64,000 bases of DNA from Ostreococcus lucimarinus (lineage: Eukaryota). A program made the translations under genes and the position numbers. The notes under the pieces are model-generated. The model ran no database searches and was not told the origin of the DNA. It was given only the letters and a program-made list of their open reading frames with translations. The stretch is from NCBI GenBank assembly GCA_000092065.1, contig CP000596.1; one strand, 5' to 3'. Below, piece by piece: positions 1 to 8,037 of the stretch. Position 1 is the first letter of the stretch. Each line of letters starts with the position of its first letter.

Positions 1-839
1 ATGTCGAGAATTAAATAATCCAGCTCGCCCCAATCCGTCGTCGTCAAGAGTTGATTAATCAACCCGCTCACCATCGGTCCGCGCATGATGGCGCTCCCTT
101 GTCCGGCGAACCCGAACGAGACCACCTTCACTCCCTCGTACTCCACCGGCGTGATCGTTCCCGTGCCTTTATCCATCTCTAACACCGGCGATTCGGGCGA
201 AATCATCGTCGGCAAGCTCGGTCCGTAGACGTCGGCGTCCAAAATCCCCACCTTTGCCCCCATCATGGCCAGCGTGTACGCCAAGTTCACGCTCGTCGTC
301 GATTTCCCGACTCCGCCCTTACACGAGCTCACCGCGATGATGTGTCGCACTCTGCGCAATCCCTCAACCGTCTCCGGCGCGTCGTTTCTCGCCGGCTGCG
401 CCGTCATCGTCACCCGCACGTTCTTCACCCATTCCAACTCCCCGACGAACGCCTTCGCCTGCCGTTCGAATTCCGCCTTCACCGGGCACGCCGGTGTCGT
501 CAATTCAATCGCAAACAGCACGTTTCCCGCGCTTTCGTCCACGTTCAGCGCTTTGACAAAGCCGCAGTTTACGATGTCCTCGCCAAAGTCTGGGTCGATC
601 ACCCGTCGCAGCTTTTCCAGCACCGCCGCCTCTTTGCTCCCGTCCGGGGCGCTGTAAATCGCGGGCATGGACGTGGTATCCACGTCCGCGGCGTCCAACG
701 CGTCGTGACCGTCCACCGCGGCGTGACGCGCGCGCACGGCGGCGCGCGGGCGTCGAGCGGCGTTATCCAAACGCTCGCGCGGCGGCTTCATAGCGCGCGC
801 TGACGGCGCGAAGACGCGCGCGGCGCCGACGCGAGGCAT
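1..839 (-). CDS. HCF101-like Mrp/NBP35-family Fe-S cluster assembly ATPase, 5' part of gene. The CDS runs off the window start. The start is ATG at 839 or the in-frame ATG at 791.
   Basis: Reverse-complement translation reads MKPPRERLDNAARR...VLEKLRRVIDPDFGEDIVNCGFVKALNV (DUF59/MIP18-like) followed by RHIIAVSSCKGGVGKSTTSVNLAYTLAMMGAKVGILDADVYGPSLPTM, the Mrp/NBP35 P-loop. The N-terminus is Ser/Arg/Ala-rich and looks like a transit peptide. It is absent from the ORF track because no stop falls in the window. Confidence 0.8.
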   Translation of the reverse strand, partial: MPRVGAARVFAPSARAMKPPRERLDNAARRPRAAVRARHAAVDGHDALDAADVDTTSMPAIYSAPDGSKEAAVLEKLRRVIDPDFGEDIVNCGFVKALNVDESAGNVLFAIELTTPACPVKAEFERQAKAFVGELEWVKNVRVTMTAQPARNDAPETVEGLRRVRHIIAVSSCKGGVGKSTTSVNLAYTLAMMGAKVGILDADVYGPSLPTMISPESPVLEMDKGTGTITPVEYEGVKVVSFGFAGQGSAIMRGPMVSGLINQLLTTTDWGELDYLILD

Positions 840-1040
840 CGCGGCGCGTTCTATCGATCGCGCGCGCGCGTCCGGAGAATCGCGCGGGCGCCGACGCGCG
901 CGCGTGCGTGTGCGCTCGTCGCGCCTCGTCGCCTCGCGTCTCGTTCGACGTTCAACGTACAGCGCTATTCCTATTCCTATTCTCCGCGCTCGTCGCGCGC
1001 TCGCCGCGCGCGCGCGACGTCACCTCGCGATCACCCGATG

Positions 1041-1625
1041 TCACCCGCGCCCGCGCCCGCGCCCGCGCGCGCCCCCCCGTCGGCCGAATTCGCCTCGCCG
1101 TCTCGCGCGCAGCGCCTTGTCGACGGCTTTGCTCTCTCGCAGCGCCGCCTCGAGTTTCGCCCCGCCGTGCGCGCGCTTGAACACCCACAAAAAGCACCCC
1201 GCCTTGGTGCGTCGTCGCCAAATCCCGCTCCCGGTCGCGCCCGCCTCGTACTTCGACCCGCCCTCGCGTTCGATTCGAAGCGTCTCTCGCAGCGCGGCGT
1301 CCATCGCGTCGCCGCCGAACGCGCGCGCGAGCCTTCGCATCAGGTGTCGCTTCGGCTCCTCGATCGTCGCCGCGACGCGTTCGGCGCACTTGAAATCTTC
1401 TTCGCGCATCTCGACGCGCGTCGGATCGTCGACGTCGAGCATCGCGTCGTCGTCGCGCGTCGTCGTCGTCGCCGCGCGGCGCGCGTCCCGAGCGTCGCGC
1501 GCCGTCACCTCCCCCTCCTCGACCTCGCGTTCGGCGTCGACCGCGCGCGCGTCGTCCATCGCTTCCATGGCTTCGTAATCGATCAGCGCGTCCTCGTCGT
1601 CGTTCGCGTCGTCGTCGCGCGCCAT
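1041..1625 (-). CDS. Hypothetical protein with an acidic N-terminus and an RGG tail.
   Basis: A 194-aa ORF starts with a true ATG at 1625 (MARDDDANDDEDALIDYEAMEAMDD...FKCAERVAATIEEPKRHLMRRLARAFGG...GIWRRRTKAGCFLWVFKRAHGG...GRGRGRG). Codon usage is GC3-rich. It sits head-to-head with the ARF gene. I do not recognise a family. Confidence 0.4.
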   Translation of the reverse strand: MARDDDANDDEDALIDYEAMEAMDDARAVDAEREVEEGEVTARDARDARRAATTTTRDDDAMLDVDDPTRVEMREEDFKCAERVAATIEEPKRHLMRRLARAFGGDAMDAALRETLRIEREGGSKYEAGATGSGIWRRRTKAGCFLWVFKRAHGGAKLEAALRESKAVDKALRARRRGEFGRRGGARGRGRGRG

Positions 1626-1699
1626 GACGGTGCTCGCGCGCGCGAATCGATGTCCCGTTGCGTCACAATCTGCCGCGCGCGCCGTCGCCGTCGCGCGCC
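1626..1699. promoter_or_regulatory. Putative bidirectional promoter, 74 bp between divergent start codons.
   Basis: The ATG at 1625 (- strand) and the ATG at 1700 (+ strand) diverge from this spacer. Confidence 0.3.
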
Positions 1700-2335
1700 A
1701 TGGGCGCGGCGCTGAGCCAGGCGCGGACGCTGTTCGACAAGTACTTCGGCAACGTGGACATGCGCGTCGTCATGCTCGGCCTGGACGCCGCCGGGAAGAC
1801 GACGATCCTGTACAAGCTGCACATCGGCGAGGTCCTGAGCACGGTGCCCACGCTCGGGTTCAACGTCGAGAAGGTGCAGTACAAGAACGTCGTGTTCACG
1901 GTCTGGGACGTCGGCGGACAGGAGAAGCTGCGACCGCTGTGGAGGCATTACTTCAACAACACGGACGGGTTGATCTTCGTGGTGGATTGCCTCGATCGAG
2001 AGCGCGCGAGACGAGCGAAGGAGGAGTTTTACAGCATCGTCAACGACGCGTTCATGCGAAACAGCGCGATATTGATATTCGCGAATAAACAGGACCTGAA
2101 GGGGGCGATGACGACGGCGGAGCTGGTGGAGGCGTTTGAACTGCCGTCGCTGAAGGGACGGAGGTGGCACGTGCAGGCGTCGTGCGCGACGCAAGGGCTG
2201 GGGCTGTACGAGGGACTGGATTGGTTGTCGAGCACGCTGACGAAGATGCGAAGGAATGGGGTGGTGACGAGCGTGGGGAGTAGCGGAGAGCGACACGGGG
2301 CGGGGAGACAGGGACGCTCGGCGCGGTTTACGTAG
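1700..2335 (+). CDS. ARF-family small GTPase (ARF/ARL-like) with a C-terminal extension.
   Basis: MGAALSQ carries an N-myristoylation-type Gly2. [15 protein letters not shown] is the P-loop. The [17 protein letters not shown] switch II and the NKQDL and CAT motifs are present. It is very close to the ARF1 pattern. The first ATG in the frame is at 1700; the ORF-track start at 1658 is a TTG. Confidence 0.9.
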
Positions 2336-2520
2336 GCGAGGCGAGCGAGACGCTTTAGACTGGGAACGCGGTCGCCTCATAGCAGCGGCGTCGGGTTCGT
2401 GTAATAAGACGACGATACGTGTGATGTGATGATGATTTTCGCGTCGGCGCGTCGCGCGATGGCGAAGCGTCGACAGTCGTCGACGATGATTCGAGTAATA
2501 CAAGTACACACAACGTAGGG

Positions 2521-4890
2521 CTACTTTTTACGCGCGAGCAGCAGCTTGGCTTCTTCGAGTTCCTCGCGACACTTGCCGCAGCCCTTGGCGGCGTAGCGAC
2601 ACTTCGAGCACCCGAGCTCGGTGCGAGGCGGACGCAACACGCGAGGTCGACCGCGAGCGGGCTTACCGTCCGCCGTGCGCACGGGGACGAGCGTGAGCTC
2701 CGTGACGATTTTCCGTTCGCCCGTGTTGATGTCGATGAACGCCTTCGCCTTTGACTTGGATGGGAACTTGACGTTGACTCCCTTGGCGCTCTTCGTTTGA
2801 ACGCGCGGGGCCGTCTTTGCCTTGGTCTTCGTCGTCTTCTTCGCCGCCACCGCCCTGGTCTTCGGCGTTCCACCGCGAGGTCCGCGTTTTGAGCGCGGCG
2901 TGTCTGGATCGCACGCGCCGCACCCTGTGGATGCCCAACGACACTTGCTGCATCCTTTCCCGACGACCACGAGCGCCATGGAATTGTCCGCGCGAACGCT
3001 CGCCTTCTTCTTTGGCGCCTTGGTGGCTTTCTTCGCCGCGAGTGCCAACTTTTGCGCAGCTGGTCCGCGCGGAAGTCGCGCGGTGCCGGGATCGCATGCG
3101 CCGCACCCGTTCGCGGACCATCTGCACTTGCTGCAACCCTTGGTGCCGTAGACGACGAGCGCCATCGAATTCGATGCGGTGGCTTTCGCCGCGCTCTTCG
3201 TCTTCTTCGTCGCTTTCACCACCGTCGGAGCTTTTGTCTTCTTCTTCGCCGCAGCCGCGCGTGGCCCTGTCGGCGCACGCGGCGTGTCTGGATCGCACGC
3301 GCCGCACCCGTTCGACGCCCATCGACATTTGCTGCATCCTTTCGAGCGCACGAGCGCGAGCGCCATCGAATCGTCCCTCGCGGGCGCTTCGACTCTGGAC
3401 TTTTTCGCCGGTGGCGGACCGTTTTTCACCTTGGGTGGGCGCCCACGGCGCTTTTTTTGTGGCTTCGAAGCTTCTGACTGCGTCGTCGCCGCGTTCAAGT
3501 CGACGACGCCGAGCGGCGATCGCGTCGCCTCGACGACGGGCGCGACGTCCACGGCGACTCGCGCCACCGTGACCACGGGCGTGCTCGCGACGGGCGTTTT
3601 CTCTCGTGGAGGCGGCATGTCATCCTCCGGCTCGCGCGCGTGCTGTAAGTACATCGGCGGCGGCAATTCGACGAGTTGTCGGTTCATGAGCGGATGCCAT
3701 CTCGGTCCCGGCGTGCACGAATCGATGGCGGGCGTCATCGCGTACGGCGTCGGCGCGTACGGCGTCATCGTGAATGGACCCGGCGTCAGCGCTTGCACGC
3801 TCATTGGACTTCTCTGTTCGACTTCTTCGCCTTCGTCGTCGTCTTCTCCGTCGTCCACGTCCGTGCACTGCACGCTCTCCTCTGGGAAACTCGTCGGGCG
3901 CGCGGGCGTGCACCCGCCCATGGGCAGCTCCAAATCGTTTGCTTCGCGGAAATCCACCATCTCCTCGATCGCCTCGTCCGCGCTCCACCGCTCGTTCGCG
4001 TCGACCCAGGTCGTGGACTTCAAAAACTCGTACAACACGCGACATCCCGGCGCGACGCGGTCGTCAAACTTGGCGAGAATCTCCTTGACGCGCGTCTCTT
4101 GACCCGCCGTCGCCGCAATCTTCTTCTCCAACTTCAGCTCCCCGAGCGCTTCTTCCAGCTGACAATCCACCAAAACCTCCACGTCTAAGCACATGGACGC
4201 GGCCCAGACCAAGAACGCCCACATATCGGCTTGAAAGTCGTAATGCGGCCCGCGCGTCTCCGGCGCGATGTACCCGCACGTCCCCGGTCCCTGCAGCGTC
4301 ATCCTCCGCTTCCCAACCTTTGGCAGCCGCACCGCGGTCCCCCAATCCGTGAATCCGATCGTCACCTTCGTCACCGTCCCGAACGCGTTCCTCAGCGCGC
4401 TCCGCACCAACAAATTCTTCGCCTTCAAATCCCTCCACACCACGCGCGCGCCCTTCAGCGCCTCCAGTCCCTCCGCCACCTGCAAGAACAAATCCAACTT
4501 CACCCGCTCGCTCAGCGCGCGTCCGCTCGCCCGCTCCCGCGTCACGAAATCCTCCAAGCATCCGTCCTCGCAGAGTTCGCTCAGCACCGCCAGATACTTC
4601 TTCCCGTCGCTCGGCCGCGTCGTCGCCGCGCACCCGTGCACCTTGACCGCGCACCGCGGCAAATCGCTCACCGTCGCCACCTCGCTCACCACCAGCGATT
4701 CCTTGTTCGAGTCCACCACGCGCGCGCACACGATTTCGTTTCGAAACCGCGCGGCGTACGCGGTGCAGAACCCGCCCTCGCCGAGGACGCGCGCGTAATC
4801 CACCTCCACCTCGGGCTCGGCGAACTGCTTCATGTCCGGGCGGTGCGCCGCGATCGCGCGCAGGCACCGCGCGCACTCGTCGGCGTTCAT
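2521..4890 (-). CDS. Ser/Thr protein kinase fused to a C-terminal array of four C2C2 zinc-knuckle modules separated by Lys/Ala-rich histone-H1-like linkers.
   Basis: There is a true ATG at 4890. The N-terminal kinase domain has LGEGGFCTAY, VAVK-like VKV, WRDLKAKNLL, DWGTA and GTCGYIAPE. A Pro/Thr/Ala-rich linker follows. The motif (M)ALxV...KGCSKCRW(A/S)xxGCGACDP occurs three times and a variant LGCSKCRYAAKGCGKCREE ends the protein. The linkers read AAAKKKTKAPTVVKATKKTKSAAKATAS. Confidence 0.8.
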   Translation of the reverse strand: MNADECARCLRAIAAHRPDMKQFAEPEVEVDYARVLGEGGFCTAYAARFRNEIVCARVVDSNKESLVVSEVATVSDLPRCAVKVHGCAATTRPSDGKKYLAVLSELCEDGCLEDFVTRERASGRALSERVKLDLFLQVAEGLEALKGARVVWRDLKAKNLLVRSALRNAFGTVTKVTIGFTDWGTAVRLPKVGKRRMTLQGPGTCGYIAPETRGPHYDFQADMWAFLVWAASMCLDVEVLVDCQLEEALGELKLEKKIAATAGQETRVKEILAKFDDRVAPGCRVLYEFLKSTTWVDANERWSADEAIEEMVDFREANDLELPMGGCTPARPTSFPEESVQCTDVDDGEDDDEGEEVEQRSPMSVQALTPGPFTMTPYAPTPYAMTPAIDSCTPGPRWHPLMNRQLVELPPPMYLQHAREPEDDMPPPREKTPVASTPVVTVARVAVDVAPVVEATRSPLGVVDLNAATTQSEASKPQKKRRGRPPKVKNGPPPAKKSRVEAPARDDSMALALVRSKGCSKCRWASNGCGACDPDTPRAPTGPRAAAAKKKTKAPTVVKATKKTKSAAKATASNSMALVVYGTKGCSKCRWSANGCGACDPGTARLPRGPAAQKLALAAKKATKAPKKKASVRADNSMALVVVGKGCSKCRWASTGCGACDPDTPRSKRGPRGGTPKTRAVAAKKTTKTKAKTAPRVQTKSAKGVNVKFPSKSKAKAFIDINTGERKIVTELTLVPVRTADGKPARGRPRVLRPPRTELGCSKCRYAAKGCGKCREELEEAKLLLARKK
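2790..3400. repeat. Intragenic tandem repeat of about three units of 195-205 bp. It encodes the CSKCRW...GCGAC knuckle and the KA-rich linker.
   Basis: The motif gcgccat(g/c)gaat(t/c)g plus ...gtgtctggatcgcacgcgccgcacccgt... recurs near 2975, 3165 and 3365. Confidence 0.7.
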
Positions 4891-5230
4891 GGCGACGTCG
4901 AGGATTAAATTTTTGGCGTCGCGCGCGTCGTCGACGCGCGTCGGTCGCGTCGCGCGTCGCGCGATGGCGCGCGCGGGCGGACGGCCGTTGGACGACGTCT
5001 TTCCCCTGGGCGCGTCGTTTTATCGCACTCGTGTACGCATTGTGTGTACGTTTCAGCCCATGTGAGTATCACGGAGCTGGTATTGGTGTCGGACACATGG
5101 GTATGTGTATTTAGTAGTGTATAAATAACACACGAACGCGAGGAAACCCTCGGACCGCGCGCGCGATCGGCACACCGCGGCGTCGATCGCGTCTCCGCGC
5201 GCGCGCCGACGGTCGACGCGCGACGAGAGC

Positions 5231-6124
5231 ATGCTCGCGTCCACCGTCTCCGCGCGCGGCGCCGCGCCGTCGCCGCGCGGCGCGAGCGCGCGCGCGGGAC
5301 CGGGACCGCGCGCGGGCGCGGCGACGACGACGCGACGCGCGGCGACGGCGAGCGCGCGCGCGACGCTCGGAAACTACGGCGGATTCGTCGATGGGAATAA
5401 ACTCGCGCGCGGGCTGGCGCGAGGCGACGGACGACGACGCGCGGCGACGTTCGCGGAGCGCGCGGGCGGGGCGGTGCGCGCGCCGAGGACGCGAGGCGGA
5501 CGCGCGACGAAGACGATGATGCCGATCGGTGTCCCGCGCGTGCCGTACAAGACGCCGAACGAGAACATGTGGCAGTGGGTTGATATTTGGAATTGCTTGT
5601 ACCGAGAGCGGATCATCTGGATCGGGCAGACGATCGACGAGGAACTCGGGAACCAACTCGTGGCGACGATGTTGTTCCTGGACAGCGCGGATCGAAACAA
5701 GCCGATGTACCTGTACATCAACAGCGAGGGGGGGCAGATCGTGCCCACGATGGCGATCCTGGACACCATGAAGCATCTGAACGCCGAGGTCGGGACGGTG
5801 GGGTTCGGAAGCGCGCGCGCGATGGGCGGTTTACTCTTGGCGAGCGGGGCCAAGGGCAAGCGCGCGGCGCTCCCGAACACGTGCATCATGCTTCATCATC
5901 CCTCCGGCGTCGCCCGCGGTTCGGCTTCGGACGTTCAAAACGAGGGTAAAGAGCTCATGCGCATCCGCGGTCAGATCAACAAGAAGATCAGCGACATCAC
6001 CGGTCGTCCCGTCGAGCAAGTGTCCGAGGAGATTCGTCGCGACAAGCACTTCACCCCCGAAGCCGCGCTCGATTACGGCATCATCGACAAGATTCTCTAC
6101 CGTCCGCGCGCGGGCGCGAGATGA
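5231..6124 (+). CDS. Clp protease proteolytic-subunit family protein with a transit peptide. The nucleophile position carries Ala, so it is ClpR-like (non-catalytic).
   Basis: IWNCLYRERIIWIGQTIDEELGNQLVATMLFLD...MYLYINSEGGQIVPTMAILDTMKHL...TVGFGSARAMGGLLLASGAKGKRAALPNTCIMLHHPSG aligns to ClpP [15 protein letters not shown]...RVMIHQPLGG. The Ser97 equivalent is Ala (ARAMG). The His and Asp equivalents are retained. Confidence 0.85.
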   Translation: MLASTVSARGAAPSPRGASARAGPGPRAGAATTTRRAATASARATLGNYGGFVDGNKLARGLARGDGRRRAATFAERAGGAVRAPRTRGGRATKTMMPIGVPRVPYKTPNENMWQWVDIWNCLYRERIIWIGQTIDEELGNQLVATMLFLDSADRNKPMYLYINSEGGQIVPTMAILDTMKHLNAEVGTVGFGSARAMGGLLLASGAKGKRAALPNTCIMLHHPSGVARGSASDVQNEGKELMRIRGQINKKISDITGRPVEQVSEEIRRDKHFTPEAALDYGIIDKILYRPRAGAR

Positions 6125-6571
6125 TCACGACACCGTTCGCTTCGTTCCTCGCATTCGTTCGCGGCGCGCCTTACGCGCGTTCGTTTGTCATAGTTTGATT
6201 CTTCGCGCTTCGCGACCGCGTCCCCTCGTCGCGCTATCCAGATCCCGCGCCCTCGAAAACGCCACTGATGGGCTCCAGCGCCTCTTCAATGCGTCATCCT
6301 AAAACCCTAGTTATGACGTCCCGTGACGTCGATGATGCGCCGACGTCACCACACGTCGACGCGCTCGCCCGCGCCCGACCGATCGCGCGCGCGCGAGCAC
6401 GCGAGCGCCTCTCGCGCCTCTCGCGCCGCGTCTCCCGCGCCCTCGCGCCGCGACTCGGCGCGCTCGACGACGCGCGACGCGACGCGCGCGCCGACCGAGG
6501 GATCGACGGCGACGGCGCCGCGCGACGGCGACGGCGACGCGGCGCGGACGCGGCGCGCGCGGTGAGGCGCG

Positions 6572-7951
6572 ATGATGCGCGCGACGACGACGACGACGAC
6601 GCTGAGCGCGCGCGCGGGATGCGCGACGCAGACGCAGGAACGGTGGACGAGCGTGAGGTCGATGGCGACGAGTCGAGGGGCGAGCGGGACGCGCGGGACG
6701 GCGACGCGAGGCGGACGCGCGAGCGCGAGAGCGCGCGGAGAAGGCGCGACGGTGAGATCAGAGCGCGAAAGGGAAGAGATGAGACGGAGAACGGGCGCGA
6801 GCGGCGGCGCGAGAGGACGGACGTGCGCGCGGGGAGGCGCGAGGAGACGCGCGGTGGCGCCGGATGCGGCGCAGGATAAGAGCGGGACGCCGATGGGGGG
6901 ACGAGTGGCGACGTCGTTCGATGAGCTCGATCCGGAGCATAACACGTCGTTCGGATCGAGTGATGAGGGGAAAGGATACGACATCGCGCAGATCACGGCG
7001 CCGGTGGCGGAGGATATGGAACAGCTGCGCCTGAATTTGAGGGATATCATCGGAAGGAAGAATCCGCTCCTCTTGGCGGCGGCGGATCAAATTTTTGGCG
7101 CTGGAGGGAAGCGGCTGCGACCGGTCTTGGTGTTTCTCGTCGCGCGTGCGACGGCGGAACTGATGCATATGAGCGATATTACGGATAGACAGAGACGGTT
7201 GGCGGAGATTACGGAGATGATTCACACGGCGTCGCTCGTGCACGACGACGTGTTGGACGACTGCGATACGCGTCGCGGCAAGGAAACCATCCACACGTTG
7301 TACGGCGCGCGCGTCGCGATTTTGGCCGGTGACTTCTTATTCGCGCAGTCGTCGTGGTTCCTGGCGAACTTGGACAACTTGGAGGTGATTAAGCTCATCT
7401 CGCAAGTCATCGCGGATTTCGCCGACGGGGAAATTTCTCAGGCGGGCGCGCTATTCAACTGCGACTTGACCCTGGACGAGTACCTCGAAAAGAGTCACAA
7501 CAAGACGGCGTCTTTGATCGCGGCGTCGTGCAAGTCCGCGGCGGTGTTCAGCGAAGTGACCGAGTCGGTCAAGGTTGACATGTACGAATACGGTAAGCAC
7601 CTCGGGTTGGCGTTTCAGGTCGTGGACGATATCTTAGACTTTACGCAATCGGAGGAGCAGTTGGGTAAGCCTCAAGGCCAAGACTTAGCGAGCGGAAACT
7701 TGACAGCCCCGACGATTTTCGCGCTGCGGGCAAAGCCAGAGTTGCGTGCGTTGATTGAGACGCAGTTTGAGAACGAGGGCGATCTTCAGAGAGCGATTGA
7801 GATCGTCAACGAGTTCGGCTTGGAGGAGGCTCAAAAACTGGCGAAGAGAGAGGGCGACATCGCGCTGGCGTCTCTCAGGCAACTCCCCGATAGTGAAGCA
7901 AAGCGGTCGTTAGTAGGCATGGTTGGGTACGTTCTCGAGCGTATCTATTAA
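6572..7951 (+). CDS. Trans-polyprenyl diphosphate synthase, solanesyl-diphosphate-synthase type, with an N-terminal Ser/Thr/Arg-rich transit peptide.
   Basis: The first aspartate-rich motif is LVHDDVLDD and the second is [30 protein letters not shown] and the overall SPS-like spacing are present. ATG ATG at 6572. Confidence 0.85.
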
Positions 7952-8037
7952 AAGCACATCCAGCGCGCATTTTTTAGGTTGCCAAAACAAAACAAGTTCC
8001 AACATCACTAAAACACTCCCGATCGATCAAATATTAT

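What the first reader, a model, noticed from the sequence alone, without database searches (positions are those of the whole stretch)
2521..3600. Ser/Thr kinase carrying a tandemly repeated C2C2 zinc-knuckle plus H1-like linker array
The C-terminal ~330 aa of the kinase at 2521-4890(-) are not ordinary low complexity. A module (M)AL(A/V)(L/V)V...KGCSKCRW(A/S)xxGCGACDP(D/G)T.R...GPR occurs three times. A fourth variant, LGCSKCRYAAKGCGKCREELEE, ends the protein. The modules are separated by AAAKKKTKAPTVVKATKKTKSAAKATAS-type Lys/Ala linkers, like histone H1 or AT-hook tails. At the DNA level these are ~200-bp tandem repeats (2790-3400). C-x2-C-x6-C-x2-C knuckles with basic linkers suggest a nucleic-acid-binding array fused to a kinase. 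I do not recognise this knuckle as a named family.
Basis: seen in the sequence. Interest (0 to 1): 0.6.

Follow-up and report, generated by a model that had tools for sequence, protein, structure and literature searches.

The report
Algal kinase with unnamed zinc-knuckle tail
A protein kinase of the tiny marine green alga Ostreococcus carries a long, basic tail with four copies of a small four-cysteine motif; no Pfam model covers this motif, yet it recurs in green-algal DNA-replication, DNA-repair and chromatin proteins, so the tail probably holds the kinase on chromatin.

Summary
ORF 2521-4890(-) encodes a 789-aa protein. It has an N-terminal Ser/Thr-type kinase domain, an acidic S/T-P-rich spacer, and a 314-aa basic tail (pI 10.7). 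The tail holds two AT-hook cores, three 'SMALVV-GCSKCRW-x3-GCGACDP' modules separated by Lys/Ala linkers, a small beta block, and a terminal 'LGCSKCRY-x3-GCGKCR' knuckle.

The repeats are old duplicates under purifying selection (dS 0.9-2.1, dN 0.1-0.2). They correspond one-to-one with those of O. tauri. Between species they are better conserved (72-79%) than the linkers (29-52%).

An exhaustive profile search found 218 protein clusters with the same core, L-G-C-S-K-C-R-[YWFH]-x4-G-C-x2-C-R. Its Cys and Gly residues are invariant. The other domains in these proteins are ORC1/CDC6-type AAA+, BRCT, BAH, an HhH-GPD glycosylase, CHD1-HTH, RING and GNAT.

No Pfam model, PDB sequence or paper matches the knuckle. 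It is not a CXXC domain.

Best reading: an undescribed, probably zinc-binding, strongly basic knuckle that helps tether nuclear enzymes to DNA or chromatin. Metal binding and the ligand are inferred, not shown.

The kinase is atypical: an invariant Arg replaces the beta3 Lys.

The parts
2521..4890 (-). Single-exon CDS, 789 aa plus stop: kinase with knuckle-bearing basic tail
   Evidence: ORF list. It is collinear over its full length with O. tauri XP_022840457.1 (779 aa). Copies with 4-6 nucleotide and 1-2 amino-acid differences occur in marine metagenomes.
3964..4794 (-). Protein kinase domain (aa 33-309), Ser/Thr-type catalytic loop W152-RDLKAKN, D182-WG, APE
   Evidence: Pfam Pkinase E 7e-20. 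BLASTP against PKA aligns WRDLKAKN with YRDLKPEN, DWG with DFG, and APE with APE. The domain is 84-86% identical to Ostreococcus orthologues and 58% to M. pusilla.
4720..4722 (-). Arg57 in the invariant 'VCARVVD', at or next to the position of the canonical beta3 (VAIK) lysine
   Evidence: There is no Lys between K21 and K63. V54-C55-A56-R57-V58-V59-D60 is invariant in five orthologues from three genera. The STK33 alignment puts its AIK lysine in this segment.
3466..3900 (-). Acidic, Pro- and S/T-P-rich spacer (aa 331-475; pI 4.2; 10 S/T-P sites)
   Evidence: Composition and motif counts. 61-62% identical to orthologues.
3424..3456 (-). AT-hook 1 and NLS-like basic patch, KKRRGRPPKVK (aa 479-489)
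   Evidence: GRP core flanked by basic residues. Conserved in O. tauri and L001 as QPQKKRRGRPPK. Identified by inspection; Pfam AT_hook was not reported.
3259..3375 (-). Module 1 (aa 506-544): DDSMALALV-RSK-GCSKCRWASNGCGAC-DPDTPRAPTGPR; Cys4 core at 3295-3336
   Evidence: 72% identical to orthologues.
3175..3258 (-). Lys/Ala/Thr linker 1 (aa 545-572; 9 K, 0 D/E)
   Evidence: Only 36-43% identical to orthologues. The L001 orthologue carries an AT-hook (GPGRPRK) in this linker.
3061..3174 (-). Module 2 (aa 573-610): NSMALVVYGTK-GCSKCRWSANGCGAC-DPGTARLPRGP; Cys4 core at 3094-3135
   Evidence: 76-79% identical to orthologues.
2989..3060 (-). Lys/Ala linker 2 (aa 611-634)
   Evidence: 29-50% identical to orthologues. 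The L001 orthologue has two AT-hook cores here.
2875..2988 (-). Module 3 (aa 635-672): DNSMALVVVGK-GCSKCRWASTGCGAC-DPDTPRSKRGPRG; Cys4 core at 2911-2952
   Evidence: 76-79% identical to orthologues. AF2 of this module with a 105-sequence alignment gives pLDDT 77-80 in the core.
2743..2874 (-). Lys/Thr/Ala linker 3 (aa 673-716)
   Evidence: 43-52% identical to orthologues.
2620..2742 (-). Conserved block 'FIDINTGERKIVTELTLVPVRTADGK' followed by AT-hook 2 'ARGRPRV' (aa 717-757; AT-hook at nt 2635-2661)
   Evidence: Conserved in P0001, P0002, P0003, P0014 and L001. It is the only part of the tail for which AF2 predicts strands. GRP core found.
2524..2619 (-). Terminal knuckle RTELGCSKCRYAAKGCGKCR plus C-terminal helix EELEEAKLLLARKK (aa 758-789; Cys4 core at 2569-2610)
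   Evidence: 69-75% identical to orthologues. AF2 predicts a helix at aa 772-788. This copy matches the general family consensus.

Best explanation
The gene encodes a Mamiellales-specific Ser/Thr-type protein kinase with an unusual active site (Arg in place of the beta3 lysine). Its C-terminal third is a largely disordered, strongly basic tail that probably anchors it to chromatin.

The tail combines three kinds of element. First, two AT-hook cores, which in other proteins bind the minor groove of AT-rich DNA. Second, Lys/Ala/Thr linkers that are free to drift in sequence as long as they stay basic. Third, four copies of a 17-residue knuckle, L-G-C-S-K-C-R-[aromatic]-x4-G-C-x2-C-[R/D]. Its four invariant cysteines most likely hold one zinc ion and display about four basic side chains and one aromatic side chain.

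The knuckle is a mobile module. It occurs, usually in one or two copies, in many green-algal proteins that act on DNA or chromatin. I infer that each knuckle makes a weak contact with DNA or chromatin. Multiplying it (1 to 3 internal copies, depending on the Ostreococcus lineage) and adding AT-hooks would raise avidity, so that the kinase domain is held near chromatin-bound substrates.

Shown: the architecture, the conservation, the purifying selection, the family distribution and the domain associations. Inferred: zinc binding, the DNA/chromatin ligand, nuclear location and the tethering function. Whether the kinase is catalytically active is open.
For: Architecture and repeats.

Not chance: 4 motifs against 0.002 expected, and none elsewhere in the window.

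Selection: dS 0.86-2.06 against dN 0.11-0.23 between the internal copies. Modules are 72-79% identical across species against 29-52% for linkers. The three modules correspond one-to-one with those of O. tauri.

Family: hmmsearch over 1.84 billion representative proteins gives 218 hits at E<=1e-3. In 142 non-redundant instances G-1, C0, C3, G9, C10 and C13 are invariant and R4 is present in 139.

Domain contexts of knuckle proteins: AAA+/Cdc6_C (P0017, P0069, P0089); BRCT (P0087, P0097, P0099, P0156); BAH (P0099); HhH-GPD glycosylase (P0080); CHD1 HTH (P0113); RING (P0088); GNAT (P0122).

Charge: the core averages +4.15 per 16 aa. Its flanks are more basic than the rest of the same proteins (0.085 against 0.023 per residue, p = 5e-10).

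AT-hooks: two cores in the window protein, and more in the linkers of the L001 orthologue.

Structure: AF2 gives a moderately confident compact core without regular secondary structure (pLDDT 77-80). The tail as a whole is predicted disordered (mean pLDDT 46.7).

Conservation of the fusion: the kinase-plus-knuckle architecture is kept in Ostreococcus, a Bathycoccus-like lineage and Micromonas.
Against: There is no direct evidence for metal or nucleic-acid binding.

Only about a quarter of the 66 longer knuckle proteins have any recognisable Pfam domain. The association with DNA and chromatin functions therefore rests on roughly 13 clusters outside the kinase family.

AT-hook-like cores accompany only 15 of 150 knuckle proteins, so the two elements are not obligatorily linked.

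The structure model has no match in the PDB, and Cys-Cys geometry could not be measured.

The three internal modules end in 'CDP' rather than the family's 'CR', so they are a derived subtype that might have a different ligand.

The Arg-for-Lys change may mean the protein is a pseudokinase scaffold rather than an enzyme brought to substrates.
Confidence: 0.55

Rival explanations
1. The knuckle is a protein-protein interaction module. It might bind a histone tail, PCNA, SUMO or ubiquitin, or another shared nuclear hub. DNA affinity of the tail would then come only from the AT-hooks and the Lys-rich linkers.
For: The same association with nuclear proteins would arise if the knuckle docked onto a common chromatin protein. 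Each internal module is preceded by a conserved hydrophobic strand-like motif, (D/N)SMAL(V/A)(L/V), which looks more like a peptide-interaction motif than a DNA contact. Many small Cys4 fingers bind proteins (general knowledge, e.g. NZF and UBZ fingers).
Against: The conserved non-Cys positions are K2, R4, K/R12 and R14 plus one aromatic residue, with a net charge of +4. That pattern is typical of nucleic-acid-binding knuckles. No conserved hydrophobic surface is apparent.
Confidence: 0.2
2. The knuckles bind RNA or single-stranded nucleic acid, as retroviral-type CCHC knuckles do. The kinase would then be recruited to RNA or to nascent transcripts rather than to duplex DNA.
For: The element is small and basic, with a conserved aromatic residue two positions after the second Cys (Y/W/F/H in 133 of 142 instances). 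This recalls the aromatic and basic residues of CCHC knuckles (established knowledge of PF00098 proteins).
Against: The recognised partner domains are DNA replication, DNA repair and chromatin domains. No RNA-binding domain (RRM, KH, helicase) was found among the 66 proteins scanned. The spacing and the ligand set (C4, x2-x6-x2) differ from CCHC. Pfam zf-CCHC gave no hit at E<=10.
Confidence: 0.1
3. The paired CxxC motifs are redox-active or bind an iron-sulfur cluster rather than structural zinc. The tail would then be a redox sensor regulating the kinase.
For: CxxC pairs can form disulfides or bind Fe-S clusters. 22 of the 105 isolated knuckles give weak matches to the BFD-like [2Fe-2S] model (best E 0.038).
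Against: Those matches are far below the curated cut-off (26 bits) and cover about 10 residues. The spacing fits no known Fe-S motif. The nuclear partner domains and the strongly basic nature of the core point to a structural knuckle.
Confidence: 0.05
4. The array is a lineage-specific low-complexity expansion with no specific function.
For: Copy number differs between close relatives: one internal module in P0002 and P0015 against three here. The linkers are compositionally simple and evolve fast.
Against: dN/dS is about 0.1 between copies. Cys and Gly are invariant across 142 instances. The three modules are orthologous one-to-one with those of O. tauri. 218 unrelated clusters share the core. 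Environmental copies differ from the window protein at only 1-2 residues.
Confidence: 0.02

Closest known systems
zf-CXXC domain (PF02008; CpG-binding domain of MLL1, CFP1, DNMT1, KDM2, TET)
   Same: Small, Cys-rich and basic, with repeated G/C-x2-C units. It is found in chromatin enzymes and binds DNA. Some knuckle subtypes are followed by '(R)(D/N)P.F.G.R', loosely recalling the CXXC 'D.(P)KFGG' loop.
   Different: CXXC has eight Cys in two CGxCxxC clusters plus two distal Cys, and binds two zinc ions. The knuckle has four Cys. The knuckle profile finds none of the 29 distinct CXXC chains in the PDB at E<=10. hhalign probability is 1.8%. There is no Pfam hit.
Retroviral-type CCHC zinc knuckle (PF00098)
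   Same: A metal knuckle under 20 residues, basic, with a conserved aromatic residue, often arrayed in tandem with basic linkers, and binding nucleic acid.
   Different: The ligand set is C-x2-C-x4-H-x4-C, against C-x2-C-x6-C-x2-C with no His here. There is no Pfam hit at E<=10. The partner domains here are DNA and chromatin domains, not RNA domains.
ULTRAPETALA1 zinc-finger domain (PF23293, zf_ULT1)
   Same: It is the Pfam model that recurred below threshold when full-length knuckle proteins were scanned, always matching profile positions 73-96 of 99 (E 0.02-4.5). ULT1 is a plant chromatin (trithorax-group) factor (my own knowledge).
   Different: All scores (8-16 bits) are below the 27-bit cut-off and cover only a quarter of the model. 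Only 1 of 105 isolated knuckles hits it. A relationship is not established.
AT-hook / histone H1 C-terminal-tail type basic DNA-binding regions
   Same: There are two R-G-R-P cores flanked by basic residues (aa 482-487 and 746-751), and Lys/Ala/Thr/Pro linkers with no acidic residues. An orthologue has further GRP cores in its linkers.
   Different: The H1 resemblance is compositional only: there are no S/TPKK motifs and no linker-histone globular domain. Pfam AT_hook did not report the cores; they were identified by inspection.
Kinases fused to nucleic-acid-binding modules, e.g. PKR (two dsRNA-binding motifs plus kinase)
   Same: An array of small nucleic-acid-binding modules on a flexible linker attached to a Ser/Thr kinase domain. 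PKR is among the weak PDB sequence matches of the kinase domain (E 5e-7).
   Different: In PKR the binding modules are N-terminal dsRBMs and they activate the kinase by dimerisation. Here the modules are C-terminal Cys4 knuckles and AT-hooks. No specific relationship between the kinase domains is shown: the best PDB hits are a mix of STK33, LRRK2, ULK and PKR at E 1e-10 to 1e-7.
Pseudokinases and atypical kinases with Arg for the beta3 Lys (e.g. mammalian KSR1, from my own knowledge)
   Same: Arg57 sits where the VAIK lysine is expected and is invariant in orthologues.
   Different: All other catalytic motifs (RD, the catalytic-loop Asn, the D of DWG, APE) are retained. Activity cannot be judged from sequence.

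Membership tests
Eukaryotic protein kinase (Pkinase, PF00069) | Significant match to the kinase-domain profile over its full length | tested here: met
   E 7.1e-20, 71.9 bits against a 31.7-bit cut-off, profile positions 4-259 of 263.
Eukaryotic protein kinase (Pkinase, PF00069) | Catalytic loop (H)RDLKxxN, DFG and APE motifs | tested here: met
   W152-RDLKAKN, D182-WG and I-APE align with YRDLKPEN, DFG and APE of PKA. They are invariant in orthologues. His is replaced by Trp, and Phe by Trp.
Eukaryotic protein kinase (Pkinase, PF00069) | Invariant beta3 (VAIK) lysine | tested here: not met
   There is no Lys between K21 and K63. The invariant segment reads VCAR57VVD. The N-lobe register is uncertain by two residues, but no register supplies a lysine.
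zf-CXXC (PF02008) | Two CGxCxxC clusters plus two distal Cys (eight Zn ligands) and a KFGG loop | tested here: not met
   There are only four Cys per unit. No Pfam hit at E<=10. The profile against PDB finds no CXXC chain. hhalign probability is 1.8%.
zf-CCHC retroviral-type knuckle (PF00098) | C-x2-C-x4-H-x4-C ligand pattern | tested here: not met
   The pattern here is C-x2-C-x6-C-x2-C with no conserved His. No Pfam hit.
Fungal Zn2Cys6 binuclear cluster (PF00172) | Six Cys: C-x2-C-x6-C-x5-12-C-x2-C-x6-8-C | tested here: not met
   The knuckle shares the opening C-x2-C-R...x6-C, but has four Cys and a different second half. No Pfam hit at E<=10.
zf_ULT1 (PF23293) | Score above the 27-bit gathering threshold over the 99-position model | tested here: not met
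   Best score is 16.1 bits (E 0.02), covering profile positions 73-96 only. 1 of 105 isolated knuckles matches.
AT-hook (PF02178 / SMART AT-hook) | R-G-R-P core flanked by basic residues | tested here: met
   KKRRGRPPKVK (aa 479-489) and KPARGRPRVLR (aa 743-753), found by pattern. The Pfam model itself was not reported at E<=10, so membership rests on the motif definition only.
AT-hook (PF02178 / SMART AT-hook) | Binding to the minor groove of AT-rich DNA | not testable with these tools
   Needs EMSA or footprinting.
Structural zinc knuckle (generic Cys4 Zn site) | Four invariant metal ligands at fixed spacing | tested here: met
   C0, C3, C10 and C13 are invariant in 142 non-redundant instances. 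One exception in spacing: x4 instead of x6 in the terminal knuckle of the Bathycoccus-like orthologue (P0016 and P0005).
Structural zinc knuckle (generic Cys4 Zn site) | Stoichiometric Zn binding and tetrahedral geometry | not testable with these tools
Linker histone H1 | Winged-helix globular domain (PF00538) and S/TPKK motifs in the tail | tested here: not met
   No Linker_histone hit. No S/TP[KR][KR] motif. Only the Lys/Ala composition resembles H1.

The most novel reading that the evidence does not exclude
The 'GCxKCR-x4-GCxxC' knuckle is a previously undescribed DNA- or chromatin-recognition domain, widespread in chlorophytes. It would read a specific chromatin feature, for example linker DNA or its CpG/methylation state in these compact genomes. 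Through it, replication-licensing (ORC1/CDC6-like), repair (BRCT proteins, an HhH-GPD glycosylase) and remodelling proteins, together with an atypical Arg-for-Lys kinase, would be recruited to the same sites.
Probability: 0.3. Interest if true: 0.7.

Novelty: new variant of a known kind. Interest (0 to 1): 0.55.

Why it matters
Small zinc modules such as CXXC, PHD and CW are the main way chromatin enzymes are targeted. A new one with a clear signature and a consistent set of replication, repair and chromatin partners would fill an annotation gap for hundreds of 'hypothetical' green-algal proteins. It would also give a handle on how ORC1/CDC6-like and BRCT proteins are recruited in these organisms.

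The kinase is conserved across Mamiellales, which are ecologically dominant marine picoeukaryotes. It sits in a genetically tractable model (O. tauri), so the prediction of a chromatin-tethered kinase, possibly a pseudokinase, can be tested directly.

If the knuckle turns out to be just another generic basic Zn knuckle, the result is a useful domain definition but not a conceptual advance.

Tried and rejected
(1) Tandem Repeats Finder on 2400-5000 did not detect the module repeat. Seed-based repeat finding did.

(2) An exact-sequence look-up of the 789-aa protein found nothing. The neighbouring Arf protein located near-identical environmental contigs instead.

(3) The word-indexed homologue search with module alignments was poor: 7 short fragments with A1, and nothing with the 105-sequence A5. 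One call failed because the query was under 40 aa. The exhaustive HMM search was what revealed the family.

(5) Viral contigs: 28 pattern matches, none confirmed by tblastn. The A5 alignment was too diverse for that tool.

(6) The CXXC hypothesis ('half-CXXC') was rejected by hhalign (1.8%) and by the lack of reciprocal hits.

(7) The Zn2Cys6, CCHC, RanBP2/NZF, LSD1-type and GATA spacings were compared by inspection and by Pfam. None fits.

(8) Literature. The motif strings GCSKCR, CSKCRY, CSKCRW, CSKCRF, GCPKCR, GCTKCR and 'CX2CX6CX2C' gave nothing relevant. Keyword searches gave nothing relevant. The O. tauri kinome paper has no passage on an atypical or lineage-specific kinase of this kind. 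The O. tauri accession was absent from the supplements of two proteome/phosphoproteome papers.

(10) No tRNA genes in the window.
Full report
**Observation**

The window is GC-rich (53-70% in 2-kb bins). Its gene order and proteins identify it as a prasinophyte of the Ostreococcus type.

- ORF 2521-4890 on the minus strand encodes 789 aa.
- Pfam recognises a protein kinase domain at aa 33-309 (E 7e-20) and nothing in the last 329 aa.
- Four C-x2-C-x6-C-x2-C units lie at aa 519-532, 586-599, 647-660 and 761-774.
- They are the only such motifs in all six reading frames of the 64-kb window.
- The number expected by chance in this protein is 0.002.
- The first three sit in a roughly 39-aa module: (D/N)SMAL(A/V)(L/V)V-x3-4-GCSKCRW-x3-GCGACDP-x-T-x-R-x2-3-GP.
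- The fourth, RTELGCSKCRYAAKGCGKCREELEE, is followed by a short C-terminal helix.

At the DNA level the three modules share a 94-nt core with 183- and 201-nt spacing, but only 62-77% identity. Tandem Repeats Finder misses it.

**Anatomy of the tail**

- Residues 331-475 are acidic and Pro-rich (pI 4.2), with ten S/T-P sites.
- Residues 476-789 are strongly basic (79 K+R against 18 D+E; pI 10.7).
- Two R-G-R-P AT-hook cores flank the array: KKRRGRPPKVK at aa 479-489 and ARGRPRV at aa 745-751.
- The three linkers contain no acidic residue.
- AF2 with ten orthologous sequences predicts the tail as mostly disordered (mean pLDDT 46.7). Strands appear only in the conserved 'FIDINTGERKIVTELTLVPV' block, and there is a terminal helix.
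- A single module modelled with a 105-sequence alignment has a moderately confident core (pLDDT 77-80) without regular secondary structure. That is what one expects of a metal knuckle.
- Foldseek finds no PDB match for that model.

**Not low complexity**

- Between the three internal copies, synonymous sites are near saturation (dS 0.86-2.06) while dN is 0.11-0.23.
- The three modules match those of the O. tauri orthologue one-to-one. Examples are 'LALALV' in module 1, 'CDPG' in module 2 and 'GPRGG' after module 3. The triplication therefore predates the split of these species.
- Against O. tauri and a second Ostreococcus lineage (locus L001), the modules are 72-79% identical and the linkers 29-52%. 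The kinase domain is 84-86% identical.
- Marine metagenome contigs carry the same 789-aa gene with 1-2 amino-acid differences.
- Copy number does vary over a longer range. One related lineage has a single internal module (P0002, P0015).
- The L001 orthologue has canonical AT-hooks inside its linkers.

**Orthologues and synteny**

The neighbourhood (FeS/ParA-type ATPase, PHAX-like, Arf, kinase, ClpP, polyprenyl synthase) is conserved in L001-L007.

The closest named relative is O. tauri XP_022840457.1 (CEG00579.1), annotated only as a Ser/Thr or dual-specificity kinase.

The same kinase domain is fused to knuckles in a low-GC Bathycoccus-like lineage (P0016, 61% identity) and in Micromonas pusilla (XP_003064213.1, 58% identity). 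In Micromonas the tail carries two knuckles of another subtype, an AT-hook, and a sub-threshold Tudor-like segment.

**The knuckle family**

An exhaustive hmmsearch with a 12-module profile over 1.84 billion representative proteins returned 218 proteins at E<=1e-3.

In 142 non-redundant instances the consensus is L-G-C-S-K-C-R-[Y/W/F/H]-[S/A]-x-x-G-C-x-[K/R]-C-R. Both Gly and all four Cys are invariant, and R4 is present in 139 of 142.

Most carriers are environmental sequences. The named ones come from Mamiellophyceae (O. tauri, M. pusilla) and Trebouxiophyceae (Symbiochloris irregularis, Parachlorella kessleri).

Where other domains are recognisable, they are mostly nuclear DNA or chromatin domains:

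- ORC1/CDC6-type AAA+ with or without Cdc6_C: P0017, P0069, P0089
- BRCT or tandem BRCT: P0087, P0097, P0099, P0156
- BAH: P0099
- HhH-GPD DNA glycosylase: P0080
- CHD1-type HTH: P0113
- RING: P0088
- GNAT: P0122

The 16-residue core carries +4.15 net charge on average. Its flanks are significantly more basic than the rest of the same proteins (p = 5e-10).

**Comparison with known families**

- No Pfam-A model reaches significance on the window protein (E<=10), on 66 full-length family members, or on 105 isolated knuckles. On the isolated knuckles the only recurrent hits are noise-level: Fer2_BFD (best E 0.038) and I-TevI_ZnF (best E 0.19).
- Sub-threshold matches to the last quarter of the ULTRAPETALA1 zinc-finger model recur (8-16 bits against a 27-bit cut-off). 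They do not establish a relationship.
- The profile finds no PDB chain other than a spurious cytochrome c match, although 29 distinct CXXC chains are present.
- hhalign against the MLL1/MLL2 CXXC domains gives 1.8% probability.
- The spacing and ligand set exclude CCHC knuckles and Zn2Cys6 clusters.
- Searches of the paper library for the motif strings found nothing relevant.

As far as these tools can show, the knuckle is an unnamed family. InterPro member databases other than Pfam could not be checked.

**The kinase**

The catalytic loop (WRDLKAKN), DWG and APE align with PKA's YRDLKPEN, DFG and APE, and are invariant across three genera. The loop is of the Ser/Thr type.

The N-lobe has no lysine between K21 and K63. 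The segment where the VAIK lysine should lie reads VCAR57VVD and is invariant. K63 is not conserved. The protein is therefore either an atypical kinase that uses Arg, or a pseudokinase. Sequence alone cannot decide.

**Mechanism**

The best-supported reading (confidence about 0.55) is that the tail is a multivalent DNA/chromatin tether made of AT-hooks, basic linkers and four probably zinc-binding knuckles, and that it holds the kinase domain on chromatin.

- Shown: the architecture, the selection, the family and its domain associations.
- Inferred: metal binding, the ligand and the localisation.

Rivals:

- a protein-binding knuckle (0.2)
- an RNA- or ssDNA-binding knuckle (0.1)
- a redox or Fe-S motif (0.05)
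- a functionless expansion (0.02, contradicted by the evidence)

**Verdict**

This is a real, well-conserved and apparently undescribed small Cys4 module, found in an unusual fusion with an atypical kinase. It is a new family within a familiar class (small basic metal knuckles on chromatin proteins), not a new kind of system. Interest is moderate (0.55). It would rise if the knuckle proved to read a specific DNA or chromatin feature.

Noticed in passing
window 4720-4722 (-), aa R57; also 4414-4437 (WRDLKAKN) and 4339-4347 (DWG): The kinase lacks the canonical beta3 lysine. The invariant segment 'VCARVVD' places Arg where Lys is expected. HRD is WRD and DFG is DWG. All of this is invariant in Ostreococcus, a Bathycoccus-like lineage and Micromonas. 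The protein may be a pseudokinase or an Arg-using atypical kinase.
   Followed up: partly
L001 6001-6804 (+), protein P0003; compare window 2336-2520: A related Ostreococcus lineage has an extra stand-alone 267-aa gene between the kinase and Arf. It is built from two copies of the 'YVDxNTG...RGRPR' block and one terminal knuckle, so it looks like a duplicate of the kinase's C-terminal end. The window has only 185 nt at that position and no such gene.
   Followed up: partly
window about 3655-3810 (-), aa 361-412: A conserved cluster of S/T-P sites and a motif, 'TPGPRWHPLMNRQLVELPPP', lie in the acidic spacer. The motif is recognisable even in the Bathycoccus-like orthologue ('TPGFHRRPMNSRR..VLPPP'). 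It may be a phospho-regulated docking motif.
   Followed up: no
window aa 507-514, 574-581, 636-643 (nt about 3349-3372, 3148-3171, 2962-2985): Each internal knuckle is preceded by a hydrophobic '(D/N)SMAL(V/A)(L/V)' segment. Related '(A/V)LALPAPG' and 'GLVLCLPAPGD' motifs occur in the Micromonas and Bathycoccus-like tails. AF2 does not pack this segment confidently against the knuckle (pLDDT about 55). Its role is unexplained; it may be a short linear interaction motif.
   Followed up: partly
P0016 / P0005 C-termini (Bathycoccus-like orthologue): The terminal knuckle reads GCSKCRYTACSKC, i.e. C-x2-C-x4-C-x2-C, two residues shorter than the x6 spacer seen everywhere else. The spacer length is therefore not absolutely fixed.
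   Followed up: no
P0023 / P0213 (Micromonas pusilla XP_003064213.1), aa about 255-310 of P0023: The Micromonas orthologue's tail contains an AT-hook (KRGRGRPAAKKK) and a 'GDWYEGVV...VRYDDGDEEDL' segment. That segment gives a sub-threshold PTM/DIR17-like Tudor hit (E 0.052). This hints that a chromatin-reader domain has been added to the same kinase.
   Followed up: no
window 3504-3581: Tandem Repeats Finder reports a 39-nt unit in 2.0 copies (77% matches) inside the spacer region (aa about 437-462, 'TPVVTVARVAVDVAPVVEATRSP'). It is a small local duplication unrelated to the knuckle modules.
   Followed up: no
window 1-8000 and L001-L007: A conserved gene block runs FeS-assembly/ParA-type ATPase, PHAX-like, Arf-like GTPase (1700-2335 +), kinase, ClpP (5231-6124 +), polyprenyl diphosphate synthase (6572-7951 +). 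The 211-aa Arf-like protein is identical in several hundred marine metagenome assemblies, so the source organism is abundant in the ocean.
   Followed up: partly
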